DNA from: Nitrosomonas sp.
GTDB taxonomy: Bacteria; Pseudomonadota; Gammaproteobacteria; Burkholderiales; Nitrosomonadaceae
DNA: 64,000 nucleotides
Assembly (NCBI GenBank): GCA_017879645.1
Contig: JAAEXZ010000001.1
Span: forward strand, 3,583 to 67,582
Reading direction: 5' to 3'
Part shown: piece by piece, positions 6,041 through 52,160 of the stretch
Layout of the letters: each line of letters opens with the position of its first letter
Position numbering within the stretch: position 1 is the first letter of the stretch
The notes under the pieces: generated by a model
The model's input: the letters and a program-made list of their open reading frames with translations, nothing else
What the model was told of the DNA's origin: nothing
The model's database searches: none
Made by a program: the position numbers and the translations under genes

Positions 6041-7243
6041 ATGAACAAAGACGATATCAAGATTACTGAAATGACCGAACACTTGCAGCCAGAGACACTT
6101 GCATTACATACGGGTATTCATCGCAGTCAATTTAACGAACACTCGGAAGCGATGTTCCTGACCTCAAGTTTTGTATTCGATAATGCAGCCCAGGCGGCTG
6201 CACGTTTTTCCGGAAACGAACCTGGCAACATCTATTCACGCTTCACCAATCCGACGGTGACTGCTTTTGAAGAACGCCTTGCCATCCTGGAGGGTGCTGA
6301 ACTGGGTGTGGCTACTGCGTCGGGAATGTCTGCAATTCTGGCTTGCATAATGGGATTGTTAGCTGCGGGAGATCATGTCGTTGCCTCGCGCAGTTTATTT
6401 GGTGCCACAGTTAATTTGTTCAATAACATCTTGAAGAAATTTGCGATCGATACCACATTCGTATCCGCTACCGATGTCGCTTCCTGGGAAGCCGCCATCC
6501 AGCCCAATACCAAATTGTTCTTTCTGGAAACGCCATCTAATCCATTGACCGAAATTTCGGATATTGCGGCTTTGGCTGAAATTGCCAGAAAGTATGGGAT
6601 ATGGTTGGCAGTGGACAATTGTTTCTGTACTCCCATCCTACAAAAACCACTTGAGCTGGGGGCTGACATTGTCATTCACTCCGCCACCAAATACCTGGAT
6701 GGGCAGGGTAGGGTACTCGGGGGCGCAGTATTAGGTAAGCGTGATTTGCTGATGGATGGAGGCATCTATGGTTTTCTGAGGACTGCCGGTCCCACGATGA
6801 GTGCTTTCAACGCCTGGGTAATTTTGAAAGGACTTGAGACGCTGAAAATTCGGATGCAGAATCACGCGGCAAATGCGCTACAACTGGCCCAGTGGCTTGA
6901 ATCACAACCCAATGTGGCACGTGTTTATTATCCTGGCCTGCCTTCACATCCACAGTATGCACTGGCAAGAATTCAGCAAAATTCGGGGGGGGGGATTGTG
7001 ACATTTGAAGTGCGTGGCGGCAAAGATGCCGCATGGCGCGTTATCGATTCCACCCGCCTGATTTCCATTACGGCCAATCTAGGGGATGCCAAGAGTACAT
7101 TGACGCATCCCGCAACCACGACCCATGCGCGTATCAGTCAGGAAGCACGTGATGCTGCAGGTATTTCGGATGGACTGTTGCGCATTGCGGTGGGATTGGA
7201 AGCAGTACAGGATATCCAGGCTGATCTTGCCCGAGGACTGTAA
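6041..7243 (+). CDS. metZ: O-succinylhomoserine sulfhydrylase (Cys/Met-metabolism PLP enzyme)
   Basis: Cys/Met PLP family with the lysine motif HSATKYLDGQG. N-terminus (TLALHTG...EHSEAMFLTSSFVF) and length are typical of MetZ. ATG at 6041 is preferred over the TTG at 6038. Confidence 0.8.
   Translation: MNKDDIKITEMTEHLQPETLALHTGIHRSQFNEHSEAMFLTSSFVFDNAAQAAARFSGNEPGNIYSRFTNPTVTAFEERLAILEGAELGVATASGMSAILACIMGLLAAGDHVVASRSLFGATVNLFNNILKKFAIDTTFVSATDVASWEAAIQPNTKLFFLETPSNPLTEISDIAALAEIARKYGIWLAVDNCFCTPILQKPLELGADIVIHSATKYLDGQGRVLGGAVLGKRDLLMDGGIYGFLRTAGPTMSAFNAWVILKGLETLKIRMQNHAANALQLAQWLESQPNVARVYYPGLPSHPQYALARIQQNSGGGIVTFEVRGGKDAAWRVIDSTRLISITANLGDAKSTLTHPATTTHARISQEARDAAGISDGLLRIAVGLEAVQDIQADLARGL
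6985..6994 (+). repeat. G10 homopolymer inside metZ (encodes S-G-G-G)
   Basis: Direct count: aat tcg ggg ggg ggg att, with G at 6985..6994. It is in frame as given. Confidence 0.95.
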
Positions 7244-33239: not shown

Positions 33240-34454
33240 ATGACCACATCGTCGCAAGATCCGGCTGACGTGAGTGTGCCGAAATTAAAAGCGCTGCCGC
33301 CACTGAGTCTGTATATCCATATTCCCTGGTGCCTGAAGAAATGCCCTTACTGTGACTTCAATTCGCATGCGATAAAGACAGCGGATGCACAGGTACCCGA
33401 AGCGGAATATGCCGCTGCACTCATTCGCGATCTGGAATCAGCCCTGGCGGAAGTATGGGGGCGGCGTCTCGGCAGCGTGTTTTTTGGGGGCGGTACACCG
33501 AGTGTATTCAGCGCGCAGTCAATTGACAGAATATTGACTGCGGTGCGCATGCTGTTACCGCTGGAGCCCTATGCCGAAGTTACGCTGGAAGCCAATCCCG
33601 GTACGTTTGAGGCACAAAAGTTCAAGGACTTCCGTGCGGCCGGAATCAACCGCCTGTCCATCGGCATACAGAGTTTCAATCCACACCATTTAAAGGCACT
33701 GGGACGTGTGCACGATGATCGTGAAGCATGGCGTGCAGTTGAAATGGCACAAAACCATTTCGATAATATCAACCTCGATGTGATGTATGCCTTGCCCGGG
33801 CAAACCGTCCAGCAAGCACAGGTTGATATCGAAACGGCCTGTTCATTCGGGGTTTCGCATCTCTCGGCCTATCATCTGACCCTCGAACCCAATACGCTGT
33901 TTTATCGTTTTCCCCCGCAACTTCCCGATGATGAAACCGCAGCCACGATGCAGGAAATGATCGAGCAAACCCTGATGAATCGGGGGTATCGTCATTACGA
34001 GACTTCCGCTTATGCGCAGCCCGGAAAGGAATCTCAGCACAACACCAATTACTGGTTGTTTGGTGATTATCTGGGCATCGGAGCGGGCGCACACAGCAAA
34101 ATCAGTTTTTCGGATAAAATCGTGCGCCAGATGCGTTTCAAGCAACCCCGGCAGTATCTGGAGCAGGCGGCCTCCGCTACATCGCTGATTCAGACACAGC
34201 ATAGCCTGACATCGGCCGACCGGGGATTCGAGTTCATGATGAATGCGTTGCGATTGCACGGTGGATTTGATACACCGCTTTTTCAGGAACGGACGGGGCT
34301 GCCGGTGGATGAATTGCGACAACAACTCGATGAAGCCGAGCGACAGGGATTGCTGGTATGGGACCGGCATCGTATCAAGCCAACCGTACTGGGCAGGCGT
34401 TTTTTGAATGATTTGCTGCAATTATTCTTGCCCGCCGAACCAAGTGTGAAATAA
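33240..34454 (+). CDS. hemW: Radical SAM heme chaperone HemW (HemN-like, oxygen-independent coproporphyrinogen oxidase family)
   Basis: LSLYIHIPWCLKKCPYCDFNSH cluster motif, GGGTPS, and a HemN C-terminal domain. 404 aa. Confidence 0.85.
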   Translation: MTTSSQDPADVSVPKLKALPPLSLYIHIPWCLKKCPYCDFNSHAIKTADAQVPEAEYAAALIRDLESALAEVWGRRLGSVFFGGGTPSVFSAQSIDRILTAVRMLLPLEPYAEVTLEANPGTFEAQKFKDFRAAGINRLSIGIQSFNPHHLKALGRVHDDREAWRAVEMAQNHFDNINLDVMYALPGQTVQQAQVDIETACSFGVSHLSAYHLTLEPNTLFYRFPPQLPDDETAATMQEMIEQTLMNRGYRHYETSAYAQPGKESQHNTNYWLFGDYLGIGAGAHSKISFSDKIVRQMRFKQPRQYLEQAASATSLIQTQHSLTSADRGFEFMMNALRLHGGFDTPLFQERTGLPVDELRQQLDEAERQGLLVWDRHRIKPTVLGRRFLNDLLQLFLPAEPSVK

Positions 34455-34533
34455 GGTCGCGCGGGCGACTCTGCCGCAGCGTGGAGCAGCGAAGCCCGGA
34501 AATAGTCATTTTGAGTTAAGAAAGGAGAGATTC

Positions 34534-35337
34534 GTGGCCTATGTGAAGCCGGAAGAAGTCATTGAGAACATGTTGCAGGCGGGCGCCAAGAAAGCCAATC
34601 TTCCTGTGCCGCAATTACTGATCCGCGGGCTTTTGTCCGGTGCTTTTCTGGGATATGCAACGACACTGGCTATACTGGCAGCCACACAAACCGGAGTGGG
34701 CATGGCGGGCGCACTGGTTTTTCCAATCGGTTTTGTCATGATCATCCTGCTGGGACTGGAACTGGCAACCGGTAATTTTGCCTTGATCCCGATTGCCGTC
34801 ACGGATAATCGCGTTACGTTTCACCGCTTGCTGGTTAACTGGTTCTGGGTGCTGACCGGAAACCTCATTGGTAGCGTCATGTATGCCTACCTGTATTGCA
34901 TAGTGGCAACGAAAATGGGATCGATCGATCCGGAGACGATTCCTGCCTTGCAGCGCATCATTGCCATTGCAGAAACCAAGACACTGGAATATGCCAAACT
35001 TGGTTTGGATGGCACGATCACAGCTTTTGTCAGTGCCATGCTATGTAACTGGATGGTCACGCTAGGGGCGGTGATGGCTTTCACTTCGACGACCACAGGT
35101 GGCAAGATCGCTGCGATGTGGTTGCCGATCATGACCTTTTTTGGCTTGGGGTATGAACATGCGATTGTGAATATGTTTGTCATTCCAGCGGGTATGCTGA
35201 TCGGCGCCAACATTACACTGGCCGAGTGGTGGATATGGAATGGACTGCCGGTCATAGCGGGTAATCTGATGGGAGGAATGATCTTTACCGGATTTGCACT
35301 ATACTGGTGTTATCGCACCAAAAGTGTTGTCTCGTGA
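34534..35337 (+). CDS. Formate/nitrite transporter (FNT) family channel
   Basis: GTG start 4-5 nt after AAAGGAGAG. Six-TM FNT pattern (LLIRGLLSGAFLGYAT..., LELATGNFAL, FGLGYEHAIVNMF). Confidence 0.85.
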   Translation: MAYVKPEEVIENMLQAGAKKANLPVPQLLIRGLLSGAFLGYATTLAILAATQTGVGMAGALVFPIGFVMIILLGLELATGNFALIPIAVTDNRVTFHRLLVNWFWVLTGNLIGSVMYAYLYCIVATKMGSIDPETIPALQRIIAIAETKTLEYAKLGLDGTITAFVSAMLCNWMVTLGAVMAFTSTTTGGKIAAMWLPIMTFFGLGYEHAIVNMFVIPAGMLIGANITLAEWWIWNGLPVIAGNLMGGMIFTGFALYWCYRTKSVVS

Positions 35338-35388: not shown

Positions 35389-35832
35389 TTAAAGATTGTA
35401 GTTTTCTGCAGCATGCAGATGCGTGTGCAGCAAATCGTAAATCCGCTCTCCCATGAGCTGATGCGGATCGAAAGCGGGTGTTTTTTGGATTTGTTCAAAG
35501 GCCTGCCGGGTATCGGAATTCTCGCCAACATAAGCCATGAACCATTCGCTAAAGCGACGTGCTGGCGTGAGGTCAAAATCCAGAATGGCGACATTGGAGT
35601 GCCGGGGATCACACTGGATGCGTTCGAAGGTCTGTTGAATTTGATGGTGTGTGCCTTCCAGGACCTGAGCGAAGCAATTCCTGTTGAACATCAATGCGCC
35701 GGTGATATTGGCAGCGCGGTTGTTTTGCCGTGAGATGGCGAGAATTTGCTCGATTTCCTCACGAATTGTACTGTCGTTCCCGCAAATTTCGCTGTGACTC
35801 AGGTAAATCAATTGATACAAGTCATTTTTCAT
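35389..35832 (-). CDS. Stand-alone BLUF blue-light FAD photoreceptor
   Basis: LYQLIYLS (photoactive Tyr), NITGALMFNRNCFAQVLEG (photoactive Gln) and DPRH...FSEWFM (Trp/Met) all present. 147 aa with no output domain. Confidence 0.88.
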   Translation of the reverse strand: MKNDLYQLIYLSHSEICGNDSTIREEIEQILAISRQNNRAANITGALMFNRNCFAQVLEGTHHQIQQTFERIQCDPRHSNVAILDFDLTPARRFSEWFMAYVGENSDTRQAFEQIQKTPAFDPHQLMGERIYDLLHTHLHAAENYNL

Positions 35833-35930
35833 GGTAATCCTTCCAAGTAGTTCGATGTACTGTTGCGGAAGTACTGAAAATCGACCGCACCTTGGGTCAT
35901 CGCATACTACTTCTTCAGGACTTTCCTATG

Positions 35931-37622
35931 TCAAAAAAGCTCCAAAATTTTCTCAACCGGAACAGGTTTGCTGATCAGATATCCCTGTACTGCATTGCAT
36001 CCATTGTGCGCCAGGTAATCCAGCTGCTCTTCTGTTTCAACGCCCTCTGCCAAGGTATCCATATTCAACGCCTGACCCAGCGACAAGATGGCCTGTACCA
36101 GTGCGCGCGATTTTTCTGTCTGCAAACTGCGAATGAACGATTGATCTATTTTGATTTTTGAAAACGGAAAGCTGTTCAAATAATTGAGGGATGAGAAACC
36201 GGTACCGAAATCATCCATGGCGATCGTGACGCCCATATTCTGTATGTGCCAGAGCTGCTCGAGGGTTTTTTCAATATTGCGAATCAACAATCCTTCGGTG
36301 ATTTCCAGTTCCAGCCGTTGTGGATCCAGTCCGCTCATATGCAAGGCACGCTGAATGTGGTGTATCAGGCTGCCATCCTCAAATTGCAGGGGGGAAACAT
36401 TGATGGCGACCCTGATGTTTGCAGGCCAGCGCGCGGCATCGTGGCAAGCGGTCTGCAAGACCCATTTACCGATGGTATGAATTTCTCCCATGCTTTCCGC
36501 GAGTGGAATGAACTGCGCAGGAGAGATCCAGTCCTTGCCGGATTTCTGCCAGCGCAGCAAGGCTTCGCATCCGACAATTTTACGGTTGTGCATGTCAATC
36601 TGGGGTTGGTAGAACAGCTGAAATTCCTGTAGCAGGAGTGCACGACGCAAACCGACCTCCAGGTTGTGCTGCTCGAGTGCTCTCTGTTCCAATCCGGGTT
36701 CAAAAATGCAATGACTGCCCGGCGCCTGTTTCTTGGCTTCGGCCAGTGCCCACTCGGCATGCTGGATCAGATTCTTGGCTTCATCCGTACCCTGATGCAG
36801 AATAGCCATGCCGACACATGCGTTGGTGTTGACCTGGCGGCCGTTAATCAGGAAAGGACGTTGTAGTAATTCCAGCAAACGCTTGGCCAGGGTCACGACA
36901 CTGGCAGGCTGTGTCTGATTGGTTTGCAGCACGATGAATTTGTCTCCATCCAGTGCGGTAACAAAATCGTCTGTCCGCGAGACGCGGGCAATGCGCTGTC
37001 CTGCCAGCTTGAGTACCTGATCGCCGGTGTCATAGCCCAGTGTTTCATTGATTTTTTTGAATTGACTTAATCCAATGAGAATGACAGCCAGCGACCGATT
37101 TTCGGATTGATCGGTTTCCCAATCAGCAAGTATTTGGTGCAATTGCTGGCGATGACCCAATGTCGGCTGAGATTCATGGTTTTCAGTTTTGTCGGCATTG
37201 CGTTGAATCAGTAATGTATGATCAGAGGGCAGGGACTCAGCGATGATCAGGCGATGATCCTGATTTAATGCGGTCCATTGCAAACGGATCATGCTTTTAT
37301 CTTCAGGAATTGCGATTTCAAGTGTGCCGGCTTGAGGACAGGTTAATGTGTGTTGCCAGTGCATGACATCCACGGAACGGATGTGCTGCACATATTCAAA
37401 GATAGAGTGTCCCGGTTGAACCGGTTGTGTATGAAGCAGTCGGGTGAAAGCCGTATTGGCGGATAAAATTTTTCCCGATGTGTCAATATAAGCGATACCG
37501 AAACCGGTATGCAGTTGGGAAATATCCTGAAATTGGGGTATGGCGTTGTGCATGATCCTTTCCATTTTTATTGTATTGATGACAAGCGGCAGGACAGTGC
37601 GACAGTGGCAGAAATGCCGCAT
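35931..37622 (-). CDS. PAS / degenerate GGDEF / EAL protein (probable c-di-GMP phosphodiesterase)
   Basis: The GGDEF site reads LDGDKF instead of GGDEF. The EAL domain is canonical (GCEALLRW, DDFGTGFSSLNYL, KIDQSF). The true start is uncertain (M1, M20 or M24 of the ORF). Confidence 0.85.
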   Translation of the reverse strand: MRHFCHCRTVLPLVINTIKMERIMHNAIPQFQDISQLHTGFGIAYIDTSGKILSANTAFTRLLHTQPVQPGHSIFEYVQHIRSVDVMHWQHTLTCPQAGTLEIAIPEDKSMIRLQWTALNQDHRLIIAESLPSDHTLLIQRNADKTENHESQPTLGHRQQLHQILADWETDQSENRSLAVILIGLSQFKKINETLGYDTGDQVLKLAGQRIARVSRTDDFVTALDGDKFIVLQTNQTQPASVVTLAKRLLELLQRPFLINGRQVNTNACVGMAILHQGTDEAKNLIQHAEWALAEAKKQAPGSHCIFEPGLEQRALEQHNLEVGLRRALLLQEFQLFYQPQIDMHNRKIVGCEALLRWQKSGKDWISPAQFIPLAESMGEIHTIGKWVLQTACHDAARWPANIRVAINVSPLQFEDGSLIHHIQRALHMSGLDPQRLELEITEGLLIRNIEKTLEQLWHIQNMGVTIAMDDFGTGFSSLNYLNSFPFSKIKIDQSFIRSLQTEKSRALVQAILSLGQALNMDTLAEGVETEEQLDYLAHNGCNAVQGYLISKPVPVEKILELF

Positions 37623-37807
37623 TTTTCAGGATGATGCCGCGATACTGTTAGCATGAATATACTCCGTGAATCAGATCGGGTTTGCGCTGCAGCATTGTAC
37701 CGGATCGACAGAATTCATGGCGCCGCTTAATTTCAGGATTTGGAAAGCAAAAAGCTGAATACAGACTGATGCCTTGGTCATGAAATAGGGAGTTGGAATA
37801 ATCTGAA

Positions 37808-38221
37808 ATGCCAAGAACCGGGATTTTACTTTCACTATCACGCGAACATCACTCTGCCTTGGTGCTGGCGCGGGCAGCCTCGCGTGCAGCGGAGAGCGGG
37901 GATGCAAACGTACAAGCCGAAATGATTGAACGTATTGAGATCTATTGGGAATCGATCATGGCGCGGCATTTTGAGGTGGAGGAACAGTTGATGGCTCAGA
38001 TTGGTAAGGATCTGGATTCACAATCCGTGATGCAGGTTTTGTCCGAGCATGCCGAGTTGCGCCTGCTTGTCGATCGGGAATGCACGATGGAGCCGGTTGC
38101 ACGGTTGCGGCGATTCGGAGATGTACTCTATACCCATGTGCGTTTTGAAGAGCGCCACTTTTTTCCGCAGTTACAAGCCTCCCATGATCTGGAGGTGGAT
38201 CCGGCACATCCCGGAAAATGA
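37808..38221 (+). CDS. Hemerythrin HHE cation-binding domain protein
   Basis: Spaced His/Glu ligand pattern: SREHHSAL, HFEVEE, EHAELR, HVRFEERHFFP. 137 aa. Confidence 0.65.
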   Translation: MPRTGILLSLSREHHSALVLARAASRAAESGDANVQAEMIERIEIYWESIMARHFEVEEQLMAQIGKDLDSQSVMQVLSEHAELRLLVDRECTMEPVARLRRFGDVLYTHVRFEERHFFPQLQASHDLEVDPAHPGK

Positions 38222-40987: not shown

Positions 40988-42142
40988 TCATTCGACACAA
41001 GAATGATAAACCCTGGGGCATACGGTACTTAGGCCGCCAGTCGGATCGTCTGCTGGAAGGCTTCTCAGTGTTTGCAGCACATTGGGAAAATATCCGGGTG
41101 CCCGAGTCCAGAAAATGTAGTTGGCTTTCAGATTATCTCGGGCATATGCCAACAGTTCCTCGACTGTAGGTGTCTTGCCGGATTTATCAGGACGGGTATT
41201 GACATAATTTGTTTGCATGACCGAGGGTGTCAGAGGGACTATTCCGGAAAGTTCTGAATAATGATGATAGACCCCCTTGGGAGCATTTGTCCTATTGACA
41301 GTCAATCCAGGATCGTCGGGGAATGTATCTGGGCCACCTAAGCCCGTTCCGATTTCCCGCAAACGGTTGACAAATGATTTCAGCATCGGCCTGGGATAAT
41401 TCGTAAACTGATAGGTCATGGTGTTCGGGAAATGTGTTCTTAATTCCTGGTTAATGAGTAACATGCCGGAATAAAAACTGTTTTCCTGATTCTTGGATAA
41501 TTCAATCATAGGCTTGCCCATGGCGGTTTCAGTCAATCCTATCCCCTCAAAATAGGGGTGCGTATTGAATCGCTTACCCAATTCGGTGATTAGGGCAACG
41601 AGCCGATTTTGTAGTTGTACATTCCAAAGTTTCAGGTTATAGCCCCTGATCTTTTGTGTCCCGTAACTGCTGAATGGAAAAGCGCCTTCCTCGTATTTTT
41701 TGTCTTTCAAATAATCGGGTATGAATCGGGTCGATGCGTCGAAGGACTTGATTTGCAATAATACGATCAATCTTTTCTTGCGCTCGGACAACTCTCTCAA
41801 TCGCTGCTCGATCTGTGAAAAATCATATGCTCCTTCACTGGGTTCCAGGTCTATCCATTCATAGCGGATTTGCACGCCACGTAACGCGGGCGTATTTTCC
41901 AGTTCCCGATAAACTTGAGACAGATATTGCGGATTGTTTTTTCCACCCATCAATGTGTAGTAATGGCCGGGATGCCATTTTACCGCTCCGGCTTCGCTGT
42001 TACGGGATGCGTGCGCTGAAAGGCTCGGTGTGGTGAGGAAAATAACCAGGAATGTAAAAGTCAGAATGGGTTTGAATTGAGCAAACCGCATGAAGTCCCG
42101 GCTATTGAAGCGTGTTTGTAACATACTAAAAATCTTCATCAT
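40988..42142 (-). CDS. Secreted uncharacterised protein, paralogue 2 of 3
   Basis: AAGGAGG RBS and signal peptide ending LSAHA/S. Same conserved blocks as 12889..14043 (VKWHPGHY, RGVQIRYEWIDLEP, LIVLLQIKSF, FEGIGLTETAMG, NYIFWTR, terminal CPRVYHSCVE). Confidence 0.85.
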   Translation of the reverse strand: MMKIFSMLQTRFNSRDFMRFAQFKPILTFTFLVIFLTTPSLSAHASRNSEAGAVKWHPGHYYTLMGGKNNPQYLSQVYRELENTPALRGVQIRYEWIDLEPSEGAYDFSQIEQRLRELSERKKRLIVLLQIKSFDASTRFIPDYLKDKKYEEGAFPFSSYGTQKIRGYNLKLWNVQLQNRLVALITELGKRFNTHPYFEGIGLTETAMGKPMIELSKNQENSFYSGMLLINQELRTHFPNTMTYQFTNYPRPMLKSFVNRLREIGTGLGGPDTFPDDPGLTVNRTNAPKGVYHHYSELSGIVPLTPSVMQTNYVNTRPDKSGKTPTVEELLAYARDNLKANYIFWTRAPGYFPNVLQTLRSLPADDPTGGLSTVCPRVYHSCVE

Positions 42143-49349: not shown

Positions 49350-52160
49350 ATGAAGCTTGAAACGAAATTTATGCGTAGCCGGGTTGCCCGGCGCATGCTA
49401 CTTTTCTTTGTTATCTCTGCATTCATTCCAGTATTGTTCTTGGCTGTCCTGTCTTATTGGGAATCTAACCAGCAATTGACCAGACAAGCGCAAACCCGTC
49501 TGGATGCGGTCAGCAAGATTTATCAAACTTCGATTTATGACCGGTTGCTGCTACTGGATCGGGCGTTGATCGAAGTTTCGCAACAACTGACTGAAAACGA
49601 ATTGCCCAATGACATGCAGGTGCAACTACAGGATAAATTTCGTCATCTCGCACTGCAATTTTCTGATGGCAAATTCCTGACCCTGCTAGGGCAAGATATG
49701 CCCGTCACGTCACTGAGTTCCGCGGCATTGCAGCATTTGCAGCACGGCCAACCCTTGCTCGTCACGCAGCGAATGGATTCCGATATCCGAATATTTGTTT
49801 TGCGTGCTCAATCGTTATCCACAGATCAGTCTGTCATCATCCGTGCAGAAATCATTCCGGAATTTTTATGGGGAAATCCTGAAGATTTTGTACTGGATAA
49901 TAATTTATGTATATTCAATGAGCTAAACATTAATCTGTTTTGTACCAACGTGCCAATTTATCCGGTGCTAGAGGATCTACAGGAAAAGACCCGCGCAACC
50001 AAAGGCAATCTGTATTGGCAGCATCAAGGCGAAAACTTTATCGCCAGTTATCATGAAATTTTCTTGCAGGCAAAGTTTATGACGCCGCGCTGGGTCGTGC
50101 TGGCATCGCAACCGGAAATGGAAGCGCTGCATGCGCTGAAGCAATTTAATACCATTTTCTGGGGCAGCGTAATTTTGTCCATTTTACTCATTCTGTTGTT
50201 GAGCATGACGCAGATTCGTCGTGTCCTCGTGCCGCTCGAACAATTGATCGATGGTACTCGCCGTTTGAGTGGCCGCGATTTCACTGCCAAAGTGTCTGTC
50301 TCCAGCACTGATGAATTCGGTGAACTGGCTTCTTCATTCAATGCGATGAGCGACAGGTTGGGTTATCAGTTTGAAACACTGGAGGCGCTTGCAAAGATTG
50401 ACCGTGATATTTTGTCATCGCTCGATATGGACAGTATCGCGACAGATGTTTTGAGTCACCTCAAGAAATTGACGGGCGCGGAGTTTGGCAGTATTTCTGT
50501 CATGAATGCCAAATCTTCCTTGTCAATGCATACTGTTGTCAGTAATGGTTCGGCGGACAAACCGACTGTTACGACGGATGTCTTGCTGGAGAACACACAT
50601 GCTCTGCTGATACAGCATCAACGGGGTATCTGGGTAGATCATCAGCTTATCAAACAACAGATTAAAGAATATACAACAGCAGTCAGATATTTCTTTTTGT
50701 TTCCATTGAACTGGAAAGAGCAGATGGTGGGGTTTATCGCCTTGGGATGCCAGAACAGACAACATTGGGTAGAGGATGAGAACCAGTTGATTCAGGATTA
50801 TGCCGATCGGATTGCGGTGGCACTTTTTACTCGAAACCGGGAAGAAATGCTTATTCGTCAGGCGAGAATCGATGCGTTGACAGGTTTGCCCAACCGGTTT
50901 TTGTTCGTTGAACAACTGCAAAAGGAGATTGCCAAAGCGCATCGTACAACGGCAAGGTTTGCGGTGTTTTATATCGATCTGGATCGCTTCAAGAAAATCA
51001 ATGATAGTCTCGGTCATTCGATCGGGGACAAGTTACTATGCGATGCGGGTCGGCGTTTGCAACACTGCGTACGCGAGAGCGATATGGTTGCCCGGCTGGG
51101 TGGCGATGAGTTTGCCGTTCTGGTCAATCCAGTTGAGCATGAACACATCGCTACCCGGATAGCTGACGATATCGTTCAGTCATTGACCAAACCTTTTTTT
51201 CTCGATGGTGATGACAATGTGGTTGGGGCTAGTATCGGCATAGCCCTGTTTCCCAGTGACGGTGAAAGCGTCGAAGAACTGATGCGCAATTCGGATATTG
51301 CCATGTACCGTGCCAAAGCAAACAGTGGCAATCGCTATATCTTTTTTGAAGAAAGCATGAATTCGGAAGTAATCAGGCGTGCCAATACTGAAAGAGAATT
51401 AAGGAAAGCCATTGCCGAAAAACAATTCGTCTTGCACTATCAGCCGCAGATCGATCCCAAAACAAATCTACCTCGGGGTGTCGAAACCCTGGTGCGCTGG
51501 AATCATCCCCGGTTGGGATTGATTTCTCCGGCTTCATTTATCCCGATTGCAGAAGAAGCCGGACTGATCGTCGATATCGGATATTTTATTCTGCACGAAG
51601 CTTGTGCGCAGTATCGTGCGTGGTGTGATCAGGGAATCGTATTGGATTATGTCGCTGTTAATGTTTCAGTCGAGCAATTCAGTCATGCTCATTTTGTGCA
51701 ATCGGTTGAGGCAGCGCTTAGAAACAATGACATGCCGGCGCATTGCCTGGAGCTGGAAATAACGGAAAGTGTACTGATGAACGATACAACGGTTGTACTC
51801 GAGGTTTTGCATCGATTGCGGCAAATGGGTATACAACTTTCGATTGATGATTTTGGAACCGGGTATTCATCCTTATCCTATCTCGAGCAACTGCCTTTTG
51901 ACACGCTGAAGATCGACATATCGTTTGTCAATAAAATTCAGGATGATCGCAGTGGTGGTACGATTGCGGCCACGATAGCTGCCATGGCGCATACATTGGG
52001 TAAGAAAGTCGTTGCAGAAGGTGTCGAAACCCAGGCACAACTGGACTTTTTGCGAAATCATGACTGTGAATTGATACAGGGTTTTTATTTCAGCCGGCCA
52101 TTGCCAGCCTGCGAGCTCGCCGCTTTCGTGAGTTCGAAGCGTGTTTGTCACAAGGACTGA
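49350..52160 (+). CDS. Periplasmic-sensor / HAMP / GAF-like / GGDEF / EAL signalling protein
   Basis: TM1, an extracytoplasmic domain of about 230 aa, TM2, HAMP (DEFGELASSFNAMSDRL), intact RLGGDEFAVL, and an EAL domain with ETLVRW, DDFGTGYSSLSYL and KIDISF. 936 aa. It starts 12 nt after the pseudopilin stop. Confidence 0.88.
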   Translation: MKLETKFMRSRVARRMLLFFVISAFIPVLFLAVLSYWESNQQLTRQAQTRLDAVSKIYQTSIYDRLLLLDRALIEVSQQLTENELPNDMQVQLQDKFRHLALQFSDGKFLTLLGQDMPVTSLSSAALQHLQHGQPLLVTQRMDSDIRIFVLRAQSLSTDQSVIIRAEIIPEFLWGNPEDFVLDNNLCIFNELNINLFCTNVPIYPVLEDLQEKTRATKGNLYWQHQGENFIASYHEIFLQAKFMTPRWVVLASQPEMEALHALKQFNTIFWGSVILSILLILLLSMTQIRRVLVPLEQLIDGTRRLSGRDFTAKVSVSSTDEFGELASSFNAMSDRLGYQFETLEALAKIDRDILSSLDMDSIATDVLSHLKKLTGAEFGSISVMNAKSSLSMHTVVSNGSADKPTVTTDVLLENTHALLIQHQRGIWVDHQLIKQQIKEYTTAVRYFFLFPLNWKEQMVGFIALGCQNRQHWVEDENQLIQDYADRIAVALFTRNREEMLIRQARIDALTGLPNRFLFVEQLQKEIAKAHRTTARFAVFYIDLDRFKKINDSLGHSIGDKLLCDAGRRLQHCVRESDMVARLGGDEFAVLVNPVEHEHIATRIADDIVQSLTKPFFLDGDDNVVGASIGIALFPSDGESVEELMRNSDIAMYRAKANSGNRYIFFEESMNSEVIRRANTERELRKAIAEKQFVLHYQPQIDPKTNLPRGVETLVRWNHPRLGLISPASFIPIAEEAGLIVDIGYFILHEACAQYRAWCDQGIVLDYVAVNVSVEQFSHAHFVQSVEAALRNNDMPAHCLELEITESVLMNDTTVVLEVLHRLRQMGIQLSIDDFGTGYSSLSYLEQLPFDTLKIDISFVNKIQDDRSGGTIAATIAAMAHTLGKKVVAEGVETQAQLDFLRNHDCELIQGFYFSRPLPACELAAFVSSKRVCHKD

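What the first reader, a model, noticed from the sequence alone, without database searches (positions are those of the whole stretch)
35389..37622. Stand-alone BLUF photoreceptor adjacent to a PAS / degenerate-GGDEF / EAL phosphodiesterase: candidate light-to-c-di-GMP switch
The 147-aa BLUF protein keeps all photocycle residues: Tyr in LIYLS, Gln in FAQVLEG, and Trp/Met in FSEWFM. It has no output domain. Ninety-eight bp upstream on the same strand lies a protein whose GGDEF site is inactivated (LDGDKF). Its EAL domain is canonical (EALLRW, DDFGTGFSS), so it is a dedicated c-di-GMP hydrolase with a regulatory pseudo-cyclase domain. Short BLUF proteins are known to control partner EAL proteins in trans (for example PapB/PapA in Rhodopseudomonas), and fused BLUF-EAL proteins exist (BlrP1, YcgF). 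Ammonia oxidation is known to be photoinhibited. In a non-phototrophic nitrifier-like organism, a blue-light input to motility or biofilm decisions would therefore make physiological sense. A hemerythrin-type protein is divergently encoded next door (37808..38221) and may add O2/NO input.
Basis: partly seen in the sequence, partly recalled or inferred. Interest (0 to 1): 0.62.

Follow-up and report, generated by a model that had tools for sequence, protein, structure and literature searches.

The report
Blue-light sensor paired with c-di-GMP phosphodiesterase
A wastewater ammonia-oxidising Nitrosomonas carries a two-gene unit, an enzyme that destroys the signalling molecule c-di-GMP followed by a small blue-light flavoprotein; the same pair sits side by side in all 80 related loci examined, so it is very probably a split light switch of a known type, in a form and an organism group where I found none described.

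Summary
Window 35389-35832 (-) encodes a 147-aa short BLUF protein with every photocycle residue. Ninety-eight nt upstream on the same strand, 35931-37622 (-) encodes a PAS / dead-GGDEF / intact-EAL protein.

- **Synteny.** I fetched 80 loci by BLUF similarity alone, from Beta-, Gamma- and Alphaproteobacteria and one Acidimicrobiales MAG. In 80 of 80 a GGDEF-EAL or EAL-bearing ORF lies directly beside the BLUF gene on the same strand, upstream in 79. The median gap is 15 nt, and -4 overlaps are frequent.
- **BLUF residues.** Tyr, Asn, Gln, Trp and Met are invariant in 81 of 81 sequences.
- **Partner.** The EAL catalytic motifs are conserved throughout. GGDEF is intact in most lineages but degenerate in all 12 members of the monophyletic Nitrosomonas clade.
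- **Selection.** All parts are under purifying selection.
- **Mechanism.** It most likely works like PapB-PapA of Rhodopseudomonas palustris: the BLUF protein binds the phosphodiesterase and blue light changes its activity. The partner here has three domains, not a lone EAL.
- **Hemerythrin.** This gene belongs with the hemN-FNT unit, not with the module.

Verdict: a new variant of a known kind, of moderate interest. No biochemistry was possible.

The parts
35389..35832 (-). Short BLUF photoreceptor gene, 147 aa. The BLUF core is residues 5-101. Two C-terminal helices span about residues 106-116 and 129-145.
   Evidence: Pfam BLUF E 3.9e-28. PDB sequence hits to TePixD, bPAC, AppA, Slr1694 and BlrP1. 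AlphaFold pLDDT 82, with the core superposing on Slr1694 and AppA at 1.5-2.5 A. Y10, N38, Q56, W97 and M99 are invariant in 81 of 81 family members. dN/dS against L001 is 0.14.
35833..35930 (-). The 98-nt spacer between the PDE stop and the BLUF start. It carries the BLUF Shine-Dalgarno GGAAGGA at 35838-35844 and a weak hairpin at 35882-35899.
   Evidence: Sequence read directly. The hairpin is only a weak terminator-like match, with 5 pairs. The 123-column alignment covering the spacer and short coding flanks is about 95% identical to L001. Contigs from RNA-labelled wastewater runs span it: 35542-35958, 35836-35985 and 35771-35953. It is longer than the family median gap of 15 nt.
35931..37553 (-). 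PAS / degenerate-GGDEF / EAL c-di-GMP phosphodiesterase gene. It is 540 aa from the probable start Met24. The maximal ORF reaches 37622 and gives 563 aa.
   Evidence: ORF. Pfam EAL 1.1e-71 and GGDEF 1.9e-27. Best solved relatives are MorA and DosP GGDEF-EAL proteins, E 3e-84 and 4e-68. Start inferred from the Shine-Dalgarno sequence and from L001. dN/dS is 0.08.
37230..37526 (-). N-terminal PAS domain of the phosphodiesterase (residues about 33-131). No cofactor is identified.
   Evidence: Weak Pfam PAS in the window protein. Orthologues pass PAS_4, PAS_7 and PAS_8 thresholds. The AlphaFold model (pLDDT 70) has a two-strand, helices, three-strand order and matches PYP, BvgS and EcDOS PAS domains with Foldseek probability 1.00.
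36726..37142 (-). Degenerate GGDEF domain. The signature is DGDKF (residues 225-229). The metal-binding Asp is replaced, giving GLSQFK (residues 184-189). The RxxD motif RTDD (residues 216-219) is retained.
   Evidence: Alignment to MorA GGDEF. Motif table across 79 partners. Coordinates. dN/dS is 0.07, so the domain is still constrained.
35964..36650 (-). EAL phosphodiesterase domain with all catalytic and metal-binding motifs: EALLRW 353-358, N408, ELEITE 438-443, DDFGTGFSS 470-478, KIKID 489-493, EGVE 526-529 and QG 546-547.
   Evidence: Pfam. Alignments to MorA and other active EAL structures. Family-wide conservation. dN/dS is 0.05.
37808..38221 (+). Neighbouring hemerythrin-type (HHE) gene, divergent from the PDE gene. 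I judge it not to be part of the module.
   Evidence: Pfam Hemerythrin E 1.7e-6. In seven N. oligotropha-type loci it lies in a hemN-FNT-hemerythrin same-strand row. It is absent from the flanks of every non-Nitrosomonas locus.

Best explanation
The two genes form one operon that encodes a split blue-light-regulated c-di-GMP phosphodiesterase.

Proposed mechanism:
1. The 147-aa BLUF protein binds FAD.
2. On blue light it undergoes the Tyr-Gln-flavin hydrogen-bond switch.
3. Through its beta5 Trp/Met segment and C-terminal helices, it changes the activity of the PAS-GGDEF*-EAL protein, to which it is bound non-covalently.
4. By analogy with PapB-PapA and BlrP1, light most probably raises EAL activity and lowers c-di-GMP. 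That would shift the cell away from the matrix/biofilm state.

In the Nitrosomonas clade the GGDEF half has lost catalysis, so the output can only be hydrolysis. The dead domain is kept as a structural or allosteric part.

Shown here: the domain identities, the residue conservation, the strict gene pairing, purifying selection, and co-divergence of the two genes.

Inferred: flavin binding, the photocycle, the physical complex, the sign of regulation, and the physiological output.
For: 1. Gene pairing. Eighty loci were chosen by BLUF similarity alone. All 80 have a GGDEF-EAL or EAL-bearing ORF directly adjacent on the same strand, upstream in 79. Seventy-eight show both domains in one ORF; two truncated loci show only EAL. 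The full-length partners are about 530-610 aa. The median gap is 15 nt, with many -4 overlaps typical of translational coupling.
2. Photocycle residues. Y10, N38, Q56, W97 and M99 are invariant in 81 of 81 sequences. The model has a BLUF fold plus two C-terminal helices. C-terminal positions F121, D122, G128 and L135 are kept in 69-77 of 81 sequences.
3. EAL domain. The catalytic motifs are conserved family-wide and in the window protein.
4. Co-divergence. BLUF pairwise distances track PDE-domain distances with r 0.80-0.84. That is as tight as the PDE domains track each other (0.69-0.82), so the pair is inherited as a unit.
5. Selection. dN/dS is 0.14 for BLUF and 0.05-0.19 for the PDE domains.
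6. Transcription. Contigs from three RNA-labelled wastewater runs bridge the PDE 3' end, the spacer and BLUF. The flanking non-coding stretches have zero cover.
7. Precedent. PapB (short BLUF) forms a complex with the EAL protein PapA, and blue light stimulates hydrolysis. BLUF-EAL fusions also exist: BlrP1 and BldP (PMC8846402; PMC3989770).
Against: - There are no biochemical data for any member of this family.
- The window spacer (98 nt) is the longest among intact pairs except L073 (104 nt). It holds a weak hairpin and is more conserved than synonymous sites, so BLUF could have some expression of its own.
- The RNA-labelled libraries may carry DNA.
- The organism lives in activated sludge and wastewater, which are mostly dim habitats.
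- The mirror-tree correlation has no species-tree control.
- The docking domain (EAL, PAS or GGDEF) is not resolved.
Confidence: 0.7

Rival explanations
1. The BLUF protein signals to a different partner, and the PDE is only a co-expressed neighbour. The partner could be a transcription factor as for BlsA, or a PixE-like or PpsR-like protein.
For: Short BLUF proteins have varied partners, for example PixD-PixE and BlsA. The window has an unusually long, conserved 98-nt spacer.
Against: Adjacency in 80 of 80 loci across three proteobacterial classes and an actinobacterium, with no other conserved neighbour. Frequent 4-nt overlaps. Co-divergence as tight as between domains of one protein.
Confidence: 0.1
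2. The pair is a functional complex, but in this dim-habitat nitrifier the flavoprotein reports something other than light, and light is not the physiological cue. Candidates are redox state, flavin availability and temperature, as reported for BlsA and YcgF co-regulation.
For: The habitat is activated sludge or wastewater. Temperature co-regulation is noted for the Acinetobacter and E. coli BLUF proteins (PMC4844311 Table 2).
Against: Every residue needed specifically for the photocycle is invariant in all 81 sequences and under purifying selection: Tyr, Gln, Trp/Met. Many relatives live in lit habitats, such as phyllosphere Methylobacterium, lichen-associated taxa and marine Granulosicoccus.
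Confidence: 0.1
3. The GGDEF-EAL protein is not an enzyme. It is a c-di-GMP receptor or scaffold like LapD, FimX or CsrD, and BLUF modulates binding rather than hydrolysis.
For: GGDEF is degenerate and RxxD is retained. NCBIfam gives weak similarity to LapD and CsrD.
Against: All EAL catalytic and metal-binding residues and the loop-6 DDFGTGFSS motif are intact. The best matches are to active phosphodiesterases: MorA, DosP, DibA. LapD and FimX lack these residues (established knowledge).
Confidence: 0.05
4. The hemerythrin gene is a third component that feeds O2 or NO information into the switch.
For: It is divergently adjacent in the window and in L001, L003 and L009.
Against: In seven N. oligotropha-type loci it lies behind FNT in a hemN-FNT-hemerythrin same-strand row. 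It is absent from the 7-kb flanks of all non-Nitrosomonas loci.
Confidence: 0.05

Closest known systems
PapB-PapA of Rhodopseudomonas palustris (short BLUF protein plus EAL phosphodiesterase acting in trans)
   Same: Both have a stand-alone BLUF of about 140-150 aa with C-terminal helices, and a separate EAL phosphodiesterase as the evident partner. The predicted output is blue-light control of c-di-GMP hydrolysis and hence of biofilm (PMC8846402).
   Different: PapA is described as a solo EAL protein. Here the partner is PAS-GGDEF-EAL, about 540-560 aa, in every lineage. GGDEF is intact in most lineages and dead in Nitrosomonas. Orthology of this BLUF to PapB could not be tested because the PapB sequence was not obtainable.
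BlrP1 (Klebsiella pneumoniae), BldP and YcgF/BluF: BLUF fused to EAL
   Same: The same two functional domains are present. The BLUF model and sequence match BlrP1 BLUF. These fusions give Rosetta-stone-type support for BLUF-to-EAL signalling.
   Different: In those proteins the domains are covalently fused, with BLUF N-terminal and no PAS or GGDEF. Here there are two polypeptides, and the BLUF gene lies downstream. The YcgF EAL domain is catalytically inactive (established knowledge), whereas this EAL is intact.
Degenerate-GGDEF/active-EAL phosphodiesterases such as Caulobacter PdeA (CC3396), and the MorA/DosP class of PAS-GGDEF-EAL proteins
   Same: The PAS-GGDEF-EAL architecture is shared. 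The best solved relatives are MorA (E 3e-84) and DosP (E 4e-68). The concept of a dead GGDEF kept as a regulatory domain comes from established knowledge of PdeA.
   Different: None of those proteins is known to be paired with a BLUF protein. GTP activation through the dead GGDEF is untested here, and both the metal-binding Asp and the signature Glu are lost.
PixD/TePixD (Slr1694, Tll0078) with PixE
   Same: TePixD is the best sequence and fold match for the BLUF protein: E 4.7e-15 and Foldseek E 1e-10. Both are short BLUF proteins that act by protein-protein interaction.
   Different: The partner there is a PatA-type response regulator, not a c-di-GMP enzyme, and there is no conserved PDE neighbour.

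Membership tests
BLUF photoreceptor domain (PF04940) | Profile match over the whole domain, above the curated threshold | tested here: met
   97.9 bits against a cut-off of 25, over profile positions 1-92 of 92.
BLUF photoreceptor domain (PF04940) | Photocycle and flavin-binding residues: Tyr on beta1, Asn on alpha1, Gln on beta3, Trp/Met on beta5 | tested here: met
   Y10, N37/N38, Q56, W97 and M99 align to TePixD Y8, N31/N32, Q50, W91 and M93. They are invariant in 81 of 81 relatives, except N37.
BLUF photoreceptor domain (PF04940) | Beta-alpha-beta-beta-alpha-beta-beta fold | tested here: met
   AlphaFold pLDDT 82. The element order is E-H-E-E-H-E-E followed by two helices. Core rmsd to Slr1694 and AppA is 1.5-2.5 A.
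BLUF photoreceptor domain (PF04940) | FAD binding and a light-induced red shift of about 10 nm | not testable with these tools
   This needs purified protein and spectroscopy.
Catalytically active EAL c-di-GMP phosphodiesterase | EAL Glu, the Arg of EALxR, Asn, ExxE, DD(F/Y)G(T/A)G loop 6, KxD, EGVE and QG | tested here: met
   EALLRW, N408, ELEITE, DDFGTGFSS, KIKID, EGVE and QG are all present and conserved across about 79 partners.
Catalytically active EAL c-di-GMP phosphodiesterase | Measured hydrolysis of c-di-GMP to pGpG | not testable with these tools
   This needs an enzyme assay.
Active diguanylate cyclase (GGDEF domain) | GG(D/E)EF signature and the metal-binding Asp of the DxDxFK motif | tested here: not met
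   The window has DGDKF and GLSQFK. All 12 Nitrosomonas-clade members have degenerate signatures. Most other lineages keep GGDEF and DLDRFK.
PapB-PapA type split BLUF / EAL system | A short BLUF protein with no output domain, encoded next to an EAL phosphodiesterase gene | tested here: met
   The pair lies on the same strand with a 98-nt gap in the window. The pairing holds in 80 of 80 loci.
PapB-PapA type split BLUF / EAL system | The partner is a stand-alone EAL protein | tested here: not met
   The partner is PAS-GGDEF-EAL in the window and in all nine orthologues scanned. PapA is described as solo EAL (PMC8846402).
PapB-PapA type split BLUF / EAL system | Orthology of this BLUF to PapB | not tested
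   The PapB sequence was not obtainable. A search seeded with a Xanthobacteraceae family member returned no Rhodopseudomonas entry among its 120 best hits. The primary papers are not held.
PapB-PapA type split BLUF / EAL system | A physical BLUF-PDE complex and light-stimulated hydrolysis | not testable with these tools
   There is only indirect support: strict pairing, translational coupling and co-divergence.
PAS domain | Profile match or PAS fold | tested here: met
   The window protein is sub-threshold (16.3 bits). Orthologues pass: PAS_7 43.1, PAS_4 30.3 and PAS_8 24.7 bits. The model matches PYP, BvgS and DOS PAS domains with probability 1.00.

The most novel reading that the evidence does not exclude
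The family is a widespread, uncharacterised two-protein photoswitch. The BLUF subunit would toggle a bifunctional PAS-GGDEF-EAL enzyme between making and breaking c-di-GMP. The ammonia-oxidiser clade (N. oligotropha and relatives, including this wastewater lineage) has deleted the synthesis half, which hard-wires 'light means less c-di-GMP'. This would be the sensory basis of light avoidance, or of floc and biofilm restructuring, in nitrifiers, and so of their behaviour under blue-light-driven partial nitrification.
Probability: 0.2. Interest if true: 0.65.

Novelty: new variant of a known kind. Interest (0 to 1): 0.45.

Why it matters
Photoinhibition of ammonia oxidation is long known. Blue light is also being tried as a way to steer nitrifying reactors towards partial nitrification (Zheng et al. 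2024, Water Res 254:121381, as cited in PMC12943234). In the library I could search I found no paper describing a dedicated photoreceptor in ammonia-oxidising bacteria.

This module is a concrete, testable candidate. It is present in culturable N. oligotropha strains Nm45 and Nm75. It would link light to c-di-GMP, and so to floc, biofilm or motility state.

More generally, the strict pairing in 80 of 80 loci defines a large natural family of split BLUF / PAS-GGDEF-EAL switches. Within it there is a natural experiment, intact versus dead cyclase half, that could be used to study BLUF-to-enzyme signalling in trans and to build optogenetic c-di-GMP tools.

Tried and rejected
I could not count other BLUF, LOV or photolyase genes in this genome. 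I also could not show directly that the module is absent from N. europaea-type genomes. Absence is inferred only from their not appearing among the best 80 of 231 hits.
2. I tried to place PapB in this subfamily. A protein search seeded with the Xanthobacteraceae member (L064) gave 641 hits, but no named Rhodopseudomonas protein among the 120 listed. Kanazawa 2010 and Ren 2012 are not held. Orthology is left untested.
3. Two subfamily cysteines (C53 and C74) looked invariant in the first 21 sequences, which suggested redox sensing. Across 81 sequences they are present in only 56 and 60, so I dropped the idea.
4. I used mirror-tree partial correlations to ask which PDE domain BLUF docks on. The result is not discriminating: partial r 0.33, 0.40 and 0.36.
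5. I checked for a c-di-GMP riboswitch or any other Rfam family in the window as a downstream output. There were none at gathering thresholds.
6. I checked whether the PAS model matched a cofactor-specific PAS class. It gives only generic PAS matches (PYP, BvgS, DOS, HTR-like), so no cofactor is inferred.
7. I considered the hemerythrin as part of the module and rejected it on synteny.
8. Literature searches for this pairing in Methylobacterium, or for BLUF neighbourhood surveys, found nothing relevant.
Full report
**1. What is there**

The ORF list confirms a 147-aa ORF at 35389-35832 (-). It also confirms a 563-aa ORF at 35931-37622 (-), 98 nt upstream on the same strand.

Pfam gives these results:
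- the small protein is BLUF (E 3.9e-28, full-length profile match);
- the large one carries EAL (E 1.1e-71) and GGDEF (E 1.9e-27), plus a sub-threshold PAS hit (E 0.0098).

The neighbours are a formate/nitrite transporter (34534-35337, +, convergent with BLUF), a HemN-like radical-SAM gene (33240-34454, +), a hemerythrin-type gene (37808-38221, +, divergent from the PDE), an esterase and a zinc alcohol dehydrogenase.

The closest locus found, 92% identical at the BLUF protein level, is from a Nitrosomonas MAG. N. oligotropha strains are about 60-63% identical. Near-identical DNA occurs in many activated-sludge, wastewater and biofilm metagenomes.

**2. The BLUF protein**

- Against solved structures the best matches are TePixD, bPAC, AppA, Slr1694, BlrB and BlrP1.
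- Y10, N37/N38, Q56, W97 and M99 align to TePixD Y8, N31/N32, Q50, W91 and M93.
- An AlphaFold model built on 40 relatives has pLDDT 82. It shows the BLUF strand and helix order plus two C-terminal helices.
- Its core superposes on Slr1694 and AppA at 1.5-2.5 A.
- There is no output domain.
- A good Shine-Dalgarno sequence (GGAAGGA) precedes the ATG.

**3. The phosphodiesterase**

- The best solved relatives are the GGDEF-EAL parts of MorA (E 3e-84) and DosP (E 4e-68).
- All EAL catalytic and metal-binding motifs are present: EALLRW, N408, ELEITE, DDFGTGFSS, KIKID, EGVE and QG.
- The GGDEF signature is DGDKF. The metal-binding Asp of DLDRFK is Ser. The RxxD motif five residues upstream (RTDD) is kept.
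- The N-terminal 110 or so residues fold as a PAS domain. The AlphaFold model has pLDDT 70 and matches PYP, BvgS, DOS and HTR-like PAS domains. Orthologues pass Pfam PAS thresholds. No cofactor can be inferred.
- The real start is probably Met24 (37553). It has a Shine-Dalgarno sequence, and the closest relative has no Met at the position of the upstream start.

**4. The decisive comparative result**

A scan of one genome per prokaryotic species, using two peptide patterns from the BLUF alignment, found 231 relatives. The best 80 were fetched with 7-kb flanks. The loci were chosen by the BLUF protein only.

| Test | Result |
|---|---|
| GGDEF-EAL or EAL-bearing ORF directly adjacent, same strand | 80 of 80 loci (upstream in 79, downstream in L021; both domains in one ORF in 78) |
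| Gap from PDE stop to BLUF start | median 15 nt, many -4 overlaps |
| Other gene conserved in the flanks outside Nitrosomonas | none |
| Partner architecture | PAS-GGDEF-EAL in all nine diverse members scanned |
| BLUF Y10, N38, Q56, W97, M99 | invariant in 81 of 81 |
| EAL motifs | conserved throughout |

The loci span Nitrosomonadaceae, Gallionellaceae, Methylococcaceae, Halomonadaceae, Salinisphaeraceae, Granulosicoccaceae, many Alphaproteobacteria and one Acidimicrobiales MAG.

BLUF pairwise distances correlate with those of the PAS, GGDEF and EAL segments at r 0.80-0.84. The three PDE segments correlate with each other at 0.69-0.82. The small gene therefore diverges as if it were a fourth domain of the large one. 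This has no species-tree control.

**5. What is special about the nitrifier copies**

- In a tree of the partners, the 12 Nitrosomonas-type sequences form one well-supported clade on a long stem.
- Every member of that clade has a degenerate signature: AGDQF, SGDQF, EGDKF, EGDTF, SDDRF or DGDKF. The first Asp of DLDRFK is Gly.
- The window and its closest relative have also lost the second Asp.
- Nearly all gamma- and alphaproteobacterial partners keep GGDEF, DLDRFK and RxxD.
- So cyclase capacity was probably lost once, at the base of the nitrifier clade, while EAL stayed intact.
- Between the window and L001, dN/dS is 0.14 (BLUF), 0.19 (PAS), 0.07 (dead GGDEF) and 0.05 (EAL). All parts are maintained, including the dead domain. 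This rests on a single pairwise comparison with small counts.

**6. Expression**

Four wastewater runs labelled RNA-Seq carry short, near-identical contigs. Three of them have contigs that run from the PDE 3' end across the spacer into BLUF: 35542-35958, 35836-35985 and 35771-35953. None covers the non-coding stretches at 35200-35303 or 37696-37903.

This fits co-transcription, but DNA carry-over in such libraries cannot be excluded.

The 98-nt spacer is unusually long for the family. The alignment covering it is about 95% identical to L001, more than synonymous sites in the flanking genes (dS 0.25-0.36). It also holds a weak hairpin. Some separate control of BLUF expression is possible.

**7. 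Mechanism**

The best-supported reading is a split light-regulated phosphodiesterase. FAD-BLUF would be bound non-covalently to the PAS-GGDEF*-EAL protein. Blue light would change EAL activity through the BLUF beta5 segment and C-terminal helices.

Two precedents are described in PMC8846402 and PMC3989770:
- PapB-PapA: a complex in which blue light is listed as stimulatory and the C-terminal helices transmit the signal.
- The fused BlrP1.

By analogy, light probably raises hydrolysis and lowers c-di-GMP. The sign, the docking surface and the role of the PAS and dead GGDEF domains are inferred, not shown.

**8. The hemerythrin**

In L002, L004-L008 and L011 the hemerythrin gene lies in a hemN-FNT-hemerythrin row on one strand, on the far side of BLUF. 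In the window, L001, L003 and L009 it lies on the PDE side. Outside Nitrosomonas it is absent from the flanks.

It therefore travels with the hemN-FNT unit. The PDE-BLUF cassette sits at different points relative to it. An O2/NO input to the switch is not supported.

**9. Comparison with what is known, and novelty**

- It works like PapB-PapA, but the partner is a three-domain protein, not a solo EAL protein.
- Orthology to PapB could not be tested.
- Searches of the held literature found no description of BLUF in ammonia oxidisers or of this conserved pairing. Only open-access papers are searchable.
- Notes from other windows of this scan record similar BLUF-beside-GGDEF-EAL pairs in other genomes. 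This agrees with the family being common.
- I file it as a new variant of a known kind.

**10. Limits**

No whole-genome census was possible.
- There is no complex prediction and no biochemistry.
- Absence from other Nitrosomonas species is inferred only from their not appearing among the best hits.

Noticed in passing
L039, L043, L044, L046, L049-L052, L055, L059, L067, L068, L070, L072, L080 (BLUF ORFs starting near locus position 7001): In Methylobacterium and one Beijerinckiaceae MAG, the BLUF partner is about 290-380 aa rather than about 150. Its C-terminal extension of 150-230 aa has no Pfam domain; one shows a weak coiled-coil hit. It is still directly behind the PAS-GGDEF-EAL gene.
   Followed up: partly
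L015 (Candidatus Nitrotoga sp. CP45, QFXJ01000024.1): A nitrite-oxidiser MAG also carries the module, with an intact GGDEF. Its PDE nests inside the Methylococcaceae clade. That suggests either horizontal transfer or a binning error.
   Followed up: partly
window 33240-35337 and 37808-38221; L002, L004-L008, L011: hemN-like, FNT and hemerythrin genes form a same-strand row in N. oligotropha-type genomes. In the window lineage the PDE-BLUF cassette lies between FNT and the hemerythrin gene. An FNT-hemerythrin pairing in ammonia oxidisers may relate to nitrite or NO handling.
   Followed up: partly
window 35833-35930: The 98-nt PDE-BLUF spacer is much longer than the family median of 15 nt. The alignment covering it is about 95% identical to the closest relative, more than synonymous sites nearby. 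It contains a weak hairpin followed by ATTTTCAG. It may be a regulatory element or an internal promoter.
   Followed up: partly
L018, L019, L065: In three loci the PDE reading frame is split into two ORFs, by a frameshift or stop, while the BLUF gene is intact. These are either pseudogenes or assembly errors.
   Followed up: no
window 49350-52160 (+): A second c-di-GMP protein of 936 aa, with HAMP-GAF-GGDEF-EAL, lies 12 kb away.
   Followed up: no
window 40988-42142 (-): A 384-aa protein with a signal-peptide-like N-terminus has no Pfam match. No Rfam family reaches threshold anywhere in this window.
   Followed up: partly
BLUF residues 53 and 74 (window 35611-35613 and 35674-35676): Two cysteines are conserved in about 70% of the subfamily, including all beta- and gammaproteobacterial members aligned first. 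They are replaced in many alphaproteobacterial members. Their role is unknown.
   Followed up: partly
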